The position numbers were made by a program, and so were the translations under genes. Source: Eledone cirrhosa (lineage: Eukaryota). Taken from it: 64,000 nt of DNA. Under the pieces are notes generated by a model. The model searched no databases and was not told the DNA's origin. It saw only the letters and a list, made by a program, of their open reading frames with translations. Shown one piece after another: positions 1-2,483 of this stretch (position 1 is the first letter of the stretch; each line of letters begins with the position of its first letter). The DNA lies in NCBI GenBank assembly GCA_964016885.1, contig OZ024760.1, positions 7,750,001-7,814,000 of the forward strand, given 5' to 3'.

Positions 1-2340
1 CACCTCTAGACCCTCTCTCTATCTACAGTCTAACACCTCTACACCCCTCTCTATCTACAGTCTAACACCTCTACACCCTCTCTCTATCTACAGTCTAACA
101 CCTCTACACCCCTCTCTATCAACAGTCTAACACCTCTACACCCTTCTCTATCTACAGTCTAACACCTCTACACCCCTCTCTCTCTTACAGTCTAACACCT
201 CTACACCCCTCTCTATTTACAGTCTAACACCTCTACACCCCTCTCTATTTACAGTCTAACACCTCTACACCCTCTCTCTATCTACAGTCTAACACCTCTA
301 CACCCTCTCTCTATTTACAGTCTAACACCTCAACACCTCTCTCTATCTACAGTCTAACACCTCTACACCCTCTCTCTATCTACAGTCTAACACCTCTACA
401 CCCTTCTCTATTTACAGTCTAACACCTCTACACCCTCTCTCTCTTACAGTCTAGCACCTCTACACCCCTCTCTATTTACAGTCTAACACCTCTACCTCCA
501 CCTCTCTCTATTTACAGTCTAACACCTCTACACCCCTCACTATTTACAGTCTAACACCTCTACACCCCTCTCTATCTACAGTCTAACACCTCTACACCCC
601 TCTCTATCTACAGTCTAACACCTCTACACCCTCTCTCTATTTACAGTCTAACACCTCTACACCCCTCTCTATTTACAGTCTAACACCTTTACCTCTACCT
701 CTCTCTATTTACAGTCTAACACCTCTACACCGTCTCTCTATCTACAGTCTAACACCACTACACCCCTCTCTCTATTTACAGTCTAACACCTCTACACACC
801 TCTCTATTTACAGTCTAACACCTCTACACCCTCTCTCTCTTACAGTCTAACACCTCTACACCCCTCTCTATTTACAGTCTAACACCTCTACCTCCACCTC
901 TCTCTATTTACAGTCTAACACCTCTACACCCCTCTCTATCTACAGTCTAACACCTCTACACCCTCTCTCTATCAACAGTCTAACACCTCTACACCCTCTC
1001 TCTCTTACAGTCTAACACCTCTACACCCCTCACTATTTACAGTCTAACACCTCTACACCCCTCTCTATCTACAGTCTAACACCTCTACACCCTCTCTCTC
1101 TTACAGTCTAACACCTCTACACCCCTCTCTATTTACAGTCTAACACCTCTACACCCCTCTCTATTTACAGTCTAACACCTCTACACCCCTCTCTATTTAC
1201 AGTCTAACACCTCTACACCCTCTCTCTATCTACAGTCTAACACCTCTACACCCTCTCTCTATCTACAGTCTAACACCTCTACACCCCTCTCTATTTACAG
1301 TCTAACACCTCTACACCCCTCTCTATTTACAGTCTAACACCTCTACACCCCTCTCTATTTACAGTCTAACACCTCTACACCCCTCTCTATTTACAGTCTA
1401 ACACCTCTACACCCCTCTCTATCAACAGTCTAACACCTCTACACCCCTCTCTCTATCTACAGTCTAATACCTCTACACCCCTCTCTATCAACAGTCTAAC
1501 ACCTCTACACCTCCTCCTCTCTCTCTTACAGTCTAACACCTCTACACCCCTCTCTATCAACAGTCTAACACCTCTACACCTCCTCCTCTCTCTCTTACAG
1601 TCTAACACCTCTACACCCCTCTCTCTATCAACAGTCTAACACCTCTACACCCCTCTCTCTATCAACAGTCTAACACCTCTACACCCCTCTCTATCAACAG
1701 TCTAACACCTCTACACCCCTCTCTCTATTTACAGTCTAACACCTCTACACCCTCTCTCTATTTACAGTCTAACACCTCTACACCCCTCTCTATCAACAGT
1801 CTAACACCTCTACACCCTCTCTCTCTTACAGTCTAACACCTCTACACCCCTCTCTATCTACAGTCTAACACCTCTACACCCCTCTCTATCTACAGTCTAA
1901 CACCTCTACACCCTCTCACTCTTACAGTCTAACACCTGTACACCCCTCTCTATTTACAGTCTAACACCTCTACACCCCTCTCTATCTACAGTCTAACACC
2001 TCTACACCCTCTCTCTATCTACAGTCTATCACCTCTACACCTCCTCCTCTCTCTCTTACAGTCTAACACCTCTACACCCCTCTCTATCTACAGTCTAACA
2101 CCTCTACACCCTCTCTCTATCTACAGTCTAACACCTCTATACCTCCTCCTCTCTCTCTTACAGTCTAACACCTCTACACCCTCTCTCTATCTACAGTCTA
2201 ACACCTCTACACCCCTCTCTCTATCTACAGTCTAATACCTCTACACCCTCTCTCTATCAACAGTCTAACACCTCTATACCTCCTCCTCTCTCTCTTACAG
2301 TCTAACACCTCTATACCTCCTCTCTCTCTTACAGTCTAAC
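1..2340 (+). repeat. Minisatellite, about 31-33 bp unit (TCTAACACCTCTACACCCCTCTCTATTTACAG), about 70-75 copies, running off the window start
   Basis: Directly visible tandem units. Each has CTAAC, a pyrimidine tract and CAG, and the last unit ends at the acceptor (2334/2335) of the BTB gene exon. Confidence 0.97.
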
Positions 2341-2355
2341 AACTCTACGCCATCA

Positions 2356-2483
2356 ATGGAGAAAGTGAAGTCGGTGGACCTTGTCAGCAATAAGAGATCC
2401 ATGATGGGGCCAGAGAATGTTGGAGCTTTAAAAGTGTTACAGAGGTATTCTGTTAGCCAGAGTGAAAACAACAGAGAAAACCA
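2356..2483 (+). CDS. BTB/POZ-domain polyQ protein, first visible coding exon (MEKVKSVDLVSNKRSMMGPENVGALKVLQRYSVSQSENNREN-Q)
   Basis: Acceptor ttacag|2335, ATG at 2356, open frame to CA|gtgagt. The phase-2 join CA+G restores frame with the next exon (Q-D-N-L-L-H-S-M). The CDS may extend further upstream (2335-2355 is also open). Confidence 0.7.

What the first reader, a model, noticed from the sequence alone, without database searches (positions are those of the whole stretch)
1..2483. Minisatellite made of about 70+ tandem complete 3' splice sites feeding a coding exon
Seen: every about 31-bp unit reads CTAAC (branch-point consensus), pyrimidine tract, CAG. The last unit is the acceptor of the BTB gene exon (ttacag|TCTAACAACTCTACG), whose first bases are themselves the start of the unit. 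I saw no ATG in the units. Inference: the intron/exon junction was tandemly amplified, giving a ladder of alternative acceptors. This could make 5'UTR length variable, shift frame if upstream exons are coding, or sequester U2AF/SF1, and copy number could tune expression.
Basis: partly seen in the sequence, partly recalled or inferred. Interest (0 to 1): 0.75.

Follow-up and report, generated by a model that had tools for sequence, protein, structure and literature searches.

The report
Octopod intron built from splice-acceptor repeats
In a gene of a likely octopus, the last bases of an intron and the first bases of the next exon are repeated head to tail about 176 times and fill almost the whole intron, yet the one spliced transcript found uses only the last, real splice site; this repeat type is already known from lancelets and birds and is most likely tolerated clutter.

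Summary
The array is real and larger than the window shows: 176 copies of a 30-37-bp unit (mode 32), 5.7 kb, 71 of them in the window. Each unit is an intron end plus the first ~15 nt of the exon at 2335; 174 of 176 end in CAG, 171 have CTRAY 26-33 nt upstream. It fills 94% of a phase-0 intron of a 974-aa DUF3504+BTB gene, so the exon is internal and coding, not 5'UTR. Only the last of 189 intron AGs keeps the frame. One spliced contig joins the upstream exon straight to 2335 and 2483 to 3091; no contig of that run lies on the units. This is a 'mirage' or 'exon-stuttering' minisatellite (amphioxus, chicken, human F7). The scan found the same kind before, including longer arrays elsewhere in this genome. 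Local twists: decayed units start right at the donor, cut off by an old hAT-like MITE, so no unique intron is left; and the only branch-point match between the last decoy AG and the real AG is a copy of the exon's first two codons. A ladder of used acceptors or expression tuning is unsupported, though decay of aberrant transcripts could hide leakage.

The parts
1..2334 (+). 3' 40% of an acceptor-junction minisatellite (71 of 176 copies; unit 30-37 bp, mode 32). The array starts upstream of the window at G000:C21:7746598 (L002:6598). Further upstream, also outside the window: a 310-nt hAT-like MITE (L002:6288-6597), two decayed units (L002:6211-6280), the donor CAG|GTAACA (L002:6210) and coding exons 1-3 (L002:1528-2652 with DUF3504, 4386-4464, 6119-6210).
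2301..2334 (+). Last unit = the real 3' splice site: CTAAC (A at -30), 15-nt pyrimidine run, CAG at 2332-2334
   Evidence: junction seen in X5 contig
2335..2483 (+). Coding exon 4 (149 nt, phase 0 in, phase 2 out; SNNSTPSMEK...); its first ~15-18 nt are the exonic half of the repeat unit; 61% purine against 28% in the array
3091..3367 (+). Coding exon 5 (acidic linker and start of the BTB domain)
   Evidence: the differences listed for relative X1 in this exon fall at codon-spaced positions
3871..6482 (.). Unrelated 30-bp minisatellite (87 copies) inside intron 5; does not touch a junction
7391..8593 (+). Last coding exon (BTB domain PF00651, polyQ, stop)

Best explanation
This is a locus-specific minisatellite whose unit copies the end of intron 3 and the start of coding exon 4 of a DUF3504+BTB gene; it fills the intron, is spliced out in the one transcript contig found, and is likely tolerated by-product DNA rather than a switch. 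Shown: anatomy, reading frames, use of the last AG. Inferred origin: a ~32-bp slippage duplication across the acceptor of an existing intron, then expansion and homogenisation; an hAT-like MITE later cut off the first two units, which decayed; the unique intron body was likely lost by a deletion joining the old donor (CTACAG|GTAA) to a look-alike unit junction (CTACAG|TCTAA). Inferred mechanism of site choice: exon definition. The only usable donor lies at 2483, the true exon is purine-rich while units are G-poor, and only the last 5 AGs give exons of 300 nt or less, so the acceptor nearest the donor likely wins; slips would give premature stops and be removed by nonsense-mediated decay. The copied exon start (CTAAC) likely now serves as branch point of the real acceptor, which would explain why so short a unit was survivable and why each unit looks like a complete splice site.
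For: Last AG is 1 of 189 intron AGs that reads through. X5 contig (2,763 nt, 0 mismatches) joins L002:6210 to 2335 and 2483 to 3091; only one genomic copy of exon 4, so a retrocopy is unlikely. The real acceptor is not intrinsically best: 5 decoys have longer pyrimidine runs and 19 share its last 14 nt. All 181 GTs in the array match the donor consensus at 4 of 9 places or fewer, real donors at 7-8 of 9. Array RNA is predicted unstructured (MFE 0.0 and -1.0 kcal/mol for two 300-nt pieces), so folding does not hide decoys. CAG broken in 2, CTAAC in 8, a 7-nt neutral word in 7 of 175 units: no sign of selection for or against the signals. Donor-adjacent units 83-84% like the best unit, 0 of 2000 shuffles each. 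Published mirages splice normally (PMC3087553, PMC3902484). 4 of 5 introns of this gene are 32-94% tandem repeat against 11% in control flanks.
Against: RNA evidence is one assembled contig of a run not on record as RNA; contigs drop rare variants and steady-state RNA hides decay targets, so leakage is not excluded. PMC9225289 finds that for competing 3' sites the upstream preference is reduced, not abolished, under exon definition, so proximity alone does not predict exclusive use of the last AG. No relative's genomic DNA was available, so the age of the intron and the deletion model are untested. Branch point use is not mapped; a CTTAC lies at -38, just upstream of the last decoy AG.
Confidence: 0.75

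Rival explanations
1. Regulated unproductive splicing: decoy acceptors are used at a real rate, the products are destroyed by nonsense-mediated decay, and copy number or splicing-factor levels tune gene dose.
For: 173 decoy CAGs are intact and all give premature stops 11-120 codons in, with two introns downstream; contigs cannot show rare or degraded forms.
Against: X5 contig is unbroken across the junction at depth 18.5 and no X5 contig lies on the units laid; signals decay no slower than neutral positions; the array is confined to one locus and turns over fast (42 distinct units of 175); known mirages give no aberrant mRNA (PMC3902484).
Confidence: 0.1
2. Intron birth: the intron was created by tandem duplication of a stretch inside a once continuous exon (Rogers model; Fig. 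7 model of PMC3087553), one copy gaining a GT.
For: Both ends of the intron are unit-like, the donor sits exactly in the register of a unit junction, no unique intron sequence remains apart from the MITE; relative X1 reads CTACAG CAG TCC at the joint, so two CAG codons may have stood there.
Against: The unit's pyrimidine tract matches neither the end of exon 3 (AAAGCTACAG) nor exon 4 beyond nt 18, so it most simply came from an existing intron; the exon starts TC, not GT, so there is no AG|GT proto-splice site; the extra CAG in X1 fits a NAGNAG acceptor or a codon indel equally well.
Confidence: 0.1
3. The array acts as a binding sponge for pyrimidine-tract or branch-point factors (U2AF, SF1, PTB, hnRNP K) on the pre-mRNA or excised intron.
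For: 5.7 kb of predicted single-stranded C/U/A-rich RNA with 171 CTRAY motifs. Protein preferences are recalled, not tested.
Against: One locus, a modest contig depth, and no evidence of a stable intron RNA: no X5 contig on the units laid.
Confidence: 0.03
4. Assembly artefact or inflated copy number.
For: Runs X2-X4 may be the source sample, so they are not independent.
Against: 42 distinct unit types in a non-random order; X2 contigs cross both edges' neighbourhoods without mismatch (2284-2580; L002:6122-6415); summed contig depth on units reaches hundreds to over 1,000 against 6-9 for unique sequence (a rough figure only).
Confidence: 0.02

Closest known systems
Amphioxus 'mirage' minisatellites (Adh3, globins BflGb6/BflGb9, troponin C, PGBD5; PMC3087553 and PMC3902484, passages read)
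   Same: Tandem copies spanning an exon-intron boundary; BflGb6 copies the 3' end of an intron plus the 5' part of the exon, as here; many units keep the splice signal; normal splicing; homogenised centre with divergent edges.
   Different: 3-7 copies of 60-160 bp in the globin and PGBD5 cases (Adh3 units 10-72 bp) against 176 copies here; here the array reaches the donor and leaves no unique intron; mollusc, not chordate.
Avian 'exon stuttering' (Hron et al. 2026, PMC12954441; abstract, passages and first part of Discussion read)
   Same: An exon edge with its donor or acceptor copied through the intron; neighbouring introns filled by unrelated local repeats (4 of 5 introns here).
   Different: Tied there to GC-rich dot chromosomes and shown to vary between individuals; here GC is 45% and length variation was not testable.
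Human F7 intron 7 37-bp VNTR (PMC1557585, abstract only)
   Same: Junction-spanning unit giving identical pseudo-sites that stay silent; the site adjoining the true exon is used.
   Different: Donor side, explained by 5'-to-3' scanning to the first site; here it is the acceptor side and the last of 174 sites is used, which forward scanning cannot explain.
DUF3504 (Crypton-derived) plus BTB proteins such as KCTD1 isoform b (PMC3212892, abstract and passages)
   Same: Host gene has N-terminal DUF3504 (E 9.7e-9) and a BTB domain (E 5.3e-7).
   Different: Orthology to KCTD1 not tested; nearest named hits are Octopus and Argonauta paralogues at 46-57% identity.

Membership tests
Mirage / exon-stuttering minisatellite | Head-to-tail repeats of a short unit | tested here: met
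   TRF period 32, 104.9 + 71.3 copies; mean identity to modal unit 94.7%
Mirage / exon-stuttering minisatellite | Unit spans a real exon-intron boundary | tested here: met
   Last unit ends at the acceptor used in X5; exon start matches unit start at 15 of 18 nt
Mirage / exon-stuttering minisatellite | Local origin (not a dispersed satellite) | tested here: met
   81 of 81 genomic matches of a 24-nt unit word at this locus
Mirage / exon-stuttering minisatellite | Normal splicing at the authentic site | tested here: met
   One spliced contig, run X5; rare forms not visible
Mirage / exon-stuttering minisatellite | Length polymorphism between alleles or individuals | not testable with these tools
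Alternative (tandem) 3' splice sites | More than one acceptor used in transcripts | tested here: inconclusive
   Only the last AG seen, but in contigs, which drop minor forms
Recursive splice sites (ratchet points) | AG followed directly by a GT donor | tested here: not met
   Units read CAG|TC; no GT in the array exceeds 4 of 9 donor matches
Intron gain by tandem duplication (Rogers model) | AG|GT proto-splice site, and unit equal to a circular permutation of flanking exon sequence | tested here: not met
   Junction is CAG|TC; pyrimidine tract absent from both exons
Intron gain by tandem duplication (Rogers model) | Intron absent in relatives | not testable with these tools
   No genomic DNA of a relative available
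hAT-type MITE (insert at L002:6288-6597) | Terminal inverted repeats, 8-bp target duplication, dispersed copies | tested here: met
   Ends CAG(TG)GTTCCCAAAC-like; flanks GTCTATAC / GTCTATTG (6 of 8); 54 other matches at 74-93%; of 11 copies examined 9 gave a left end, 8 of these with TA at target positions 4-5, and 1 gave both ends with a 7-of-8 duplication. The hAT label is recalled from these features, not from a library search.

The most novel reading that the evidence does not exclude
The intron has been wholly replaced by copies of its own acceptor junction and now depends on them: the real exon borrows its branch point from a copy of its own first two codons, the array has rewritten the exon's first codons by gene conversion, and a leak to the 173 decoys, hidden by nonsense-mediated decay, makes gene dose depend on allele length.
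Probability: 0.1. Interest if true: 0.62.

Novelty: new member of a known kind. Interest (0 to 1): 0.3.

Why it matters
As an element it is a known oddity in a further animal group. Its value is as a natural test of 3' splice-site choice: 173 intact decoys, 19 identical to the real site over the last 14 nt and 5 with longer pyrimidine runs, all upstream of the site that is used. That rules out simple forward scanning and intrinsic strength, and leaves exon definition plus decay of errors. If the branch point is indeed supplied by the copied exon start, it gives a testable rule for which acceptor duplications survive.

Tried and rejected
No RNA holder was listed as such by the run search; X5 and X1 are taken as RNA only because their contigs are spliced. 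Searches for full-length orthologues found only more distant relatives or paralogues (7 hits; 9 hits) or nothing (0 of 87 candidates); the HMMER search of protein representatives never ran, so exon-start evolution rests on one relative. Control survey: of 99 loci around kinase, helicase, myosin and BTB matches in this genome, 37 held a minisatellite within 1.5 kb, 9 had one near a match edge, and 0 of these 9 crossed a splice junction on inspection; many match edges are not junctions, so this is only a rough bound. Recursive splicing, 5'UTR variation and masking by RNA structure were rejected. Literature searches without a cephalopod report: (open-access library only; supplements not read). 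PMC8724738 (passages) gave nothing relevant.

Full report
Observation. Window 1-2334 is a tandem array (TRF period 32, 71.3 copies). Splitting at CAG|TCTA gives 71 junctions and units of 32-37 bp, 66 CTAAC and no ATG. The window lies at G000:C21:7750001-7814000. The 10 kb upstream (L002) show that the array begins at L002:6598 and has 176 junction copies over 5,737 nt. 174 of 176 end in CAG and 171 have CTRAY 26-33 nt before the G. A 24-nt unit word has 81 matches in the genome, all here. There are 42 distinct units among 175, mean identity to the mode 94.7%.

Host gene. Six exons (L002:1528-2652, 4386-4464, 6119-6210; window 2335-2483, 3091-3367, 7391-8593) give one open frame of 974 aa with GT-AG ends. 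Pfam finds DUF3504 in exon 1 and BTB in the last exon, nothing in exons 4 and 5 (2 of 4 pieces). DUF3504 is a domesticated Crypton recombinase and occurs with BTB in KCTD1 isoform b (PMC3212892, abstract and passages). The best named hits are Octopus and Argonauta proteins at 46-57%, two unnamed proteins reach 74-77%; an octopod host is inferred. The array lies in phase-0 intron 3 (6,124 nt). Of 189 AGs in the intron only the last reads through; the 176 other AGs in the array stop 11-120 codons in.

RNA. No listed run was on record as RNA. A 2,763-nt contig of run X5 covers 2330-2483 and 3091-3369 as adjacent pieces without mismatch; the same contig covers L002:6122-6210 and continues with the first 30 letters of the exon at 2335. 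So the last AG is used and the transcript starts about 1,900 nt further upstream. Exon 4 has a single genomic copy, so a retrocopy is unlikely. A relative (run X1, other organism and study) also has a spliced contig joining exon 3 to exon 4, with one extra CAG at the joint; whether it carries an array is unknown. Limits: one contig each, minor forms dropped, decay targets invisible.

Why the last AG. It is not the strongest by sequence: 5 decoys have longer pyrimidine runs, 40 have as many T, 19 share its last 14 nt and 5 its last 17. The array has 3% G and is predicted unstructured. No GT in it resembles a donor (at most 4 of 9, real donors 7-8), so a decoy can pair only with the donor at 2483, and only the last 5 AGs give exons up to 300 nt. 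The exon is 61% purine against 28%. PMC9225289 (abstract and passages) reports that between long introns the sites closest across the exon are preferred, but also that for 3' sites the upstream preference is only reduced; so proximity probably needs help from exon enhancers (recalled, untested) and from decay of errors. This step is inferred.

Origin. The unit's first half is the exon start (15 of 18 nt), its second half the intron end. The 'branch point' CTAAC is simply codons 1-2 of the exon (Ser-Asn); in X1 these letters read CCAGC, so the motif is lineage-specific. Between the last decoy AG and the real acceptor CTAAC at -30 is the only yUnAy match apart from one at -4. The unit keeps only about 17-19 nt of the old intron, so the real exon likely takes its branch point from the last repeat (inferred). 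Signals decay like neutral positions: CAG broken in 2, CTAAC in 8, a 7-nt control word in 7 of 175 units.

The 5' end. Directly behind the donor lie two decayed units, 83-84% like the best unit, 0 of 2000 shuffles each; the first is closest to the unit type at the 3' edge (units 170 and 174), as expected if edges keep the old state. A 310-nt element with inverted ends and a 6-of-8 target duplication sits in the third unit and has 54 other genomic matches at 74-93%, so the array is older than that insertion. The intron is thus 77 nt old units, 310 nt MITE and 5,737 nt array, with no unique body. This donor is the only one of five without +5 G. A deletion joining the old donor to a look-alike unit junction is the simplest account; intron birth from exon sequence is less likely because the pyrimidine tract is in neither exon. 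Neither could be tested without a relative's DNA. The exon start differs from X1 at 7 of 18 nt against 36 of 331 in exons 3 and 5 (binomial p 0.002; the 7 counted by eye, post hoc), and the unit shares this genome's letter at 5 of the 7. But the whole 5' half of the exon failed to lay at 82% in X1, so fast linker evolution explains it as well as conversion by the array.

Context. 4 of 5 introns of the gene are 32-94% tandem repeat, the window 34%, the upstream 100 kb 19%, control flanks 11%. In 99 control loci no array crossed a junction (rough). Junction arrays are therefore uncommon per exon but recur: unchecked notes of this scan describe 67, about 247 and about 335 copies at other genes of this genome.

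Known kinds. Tandem copies of exon-intron boundaries are the 'mirages' of amphioxus, reported not to disturb splicing (PMC3087553, PMC3902484, passages; the original Adh3 paper was not read), the 'exon stuttering' of chicken dot chromosomes (PMC12954441) and, on the donor side, the F7 intron 7 VNTR (PMC1557585, abstract). Four of five defining features were met and length polymorphism was not testable. No cephalopod report turned up (open-access library only; supplements unread).

Verdict. Observation confirmed, origin right, function unsupported. New member of a known kind; interest 0.3, for the clean test of acceptor choice and the whole-intron anatomy.

Noticed in passing
L002:6288-6597 (G000:C21:7746288-7746597): hAT-like MITE inserted into the third repeat unit; it froze two old units next to the donor and gives a relative date for the array.
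   Followed up: yes
window 2335-2352: Exon start differs from relative X1 at 7 of 18 nt and leans towards the repeat unit; X1 has an extra CAG at the joint (NAGNAG or codon indel).
   Followed up: partly
window 3871-6482: Second large minisatellite (30 bp, 87 copies) in intron 5 of the same gene, not at a junction.
   Followed up: no
window 3390-3714, 21612-22423, 26297-27475, 33643-34366, 53498-53834: Related ~48-bp units (CACCCAGTACACTCTGTAAAG-like) amplified locally several times; look derived from a dispersed repeat.
   Followed up: no
window 7766-7843: CAG/CAA repeat coding a polyQ run of about 25 in the last exon.
   Followed up: no
window 39118-40167 (-): 349-aa open frame of non-repetitive composition, not identified.
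   Followed up: no
window 55396-56478 (+), 62555-63265 (-), 41391-42348 (+), 14922-15443 (+); L002:4690-5750: Fragments that read like LINE reverse-transcriptase ends (recognised by eye, not searched).
   Followed up: no
G000 C4, C7, C10, C23 (L036-L044): 16 other genomic matches to the start of this BTB domain, many clustered on C4; at least one shares the intron position after the M codon. Suggests an expanded BTB family.
   Followed up: partly
L132:496-1498: A CAC/TAC-rich array starts about 8 nt behind a myosin exon donor without copying it.
   Followed up: partly
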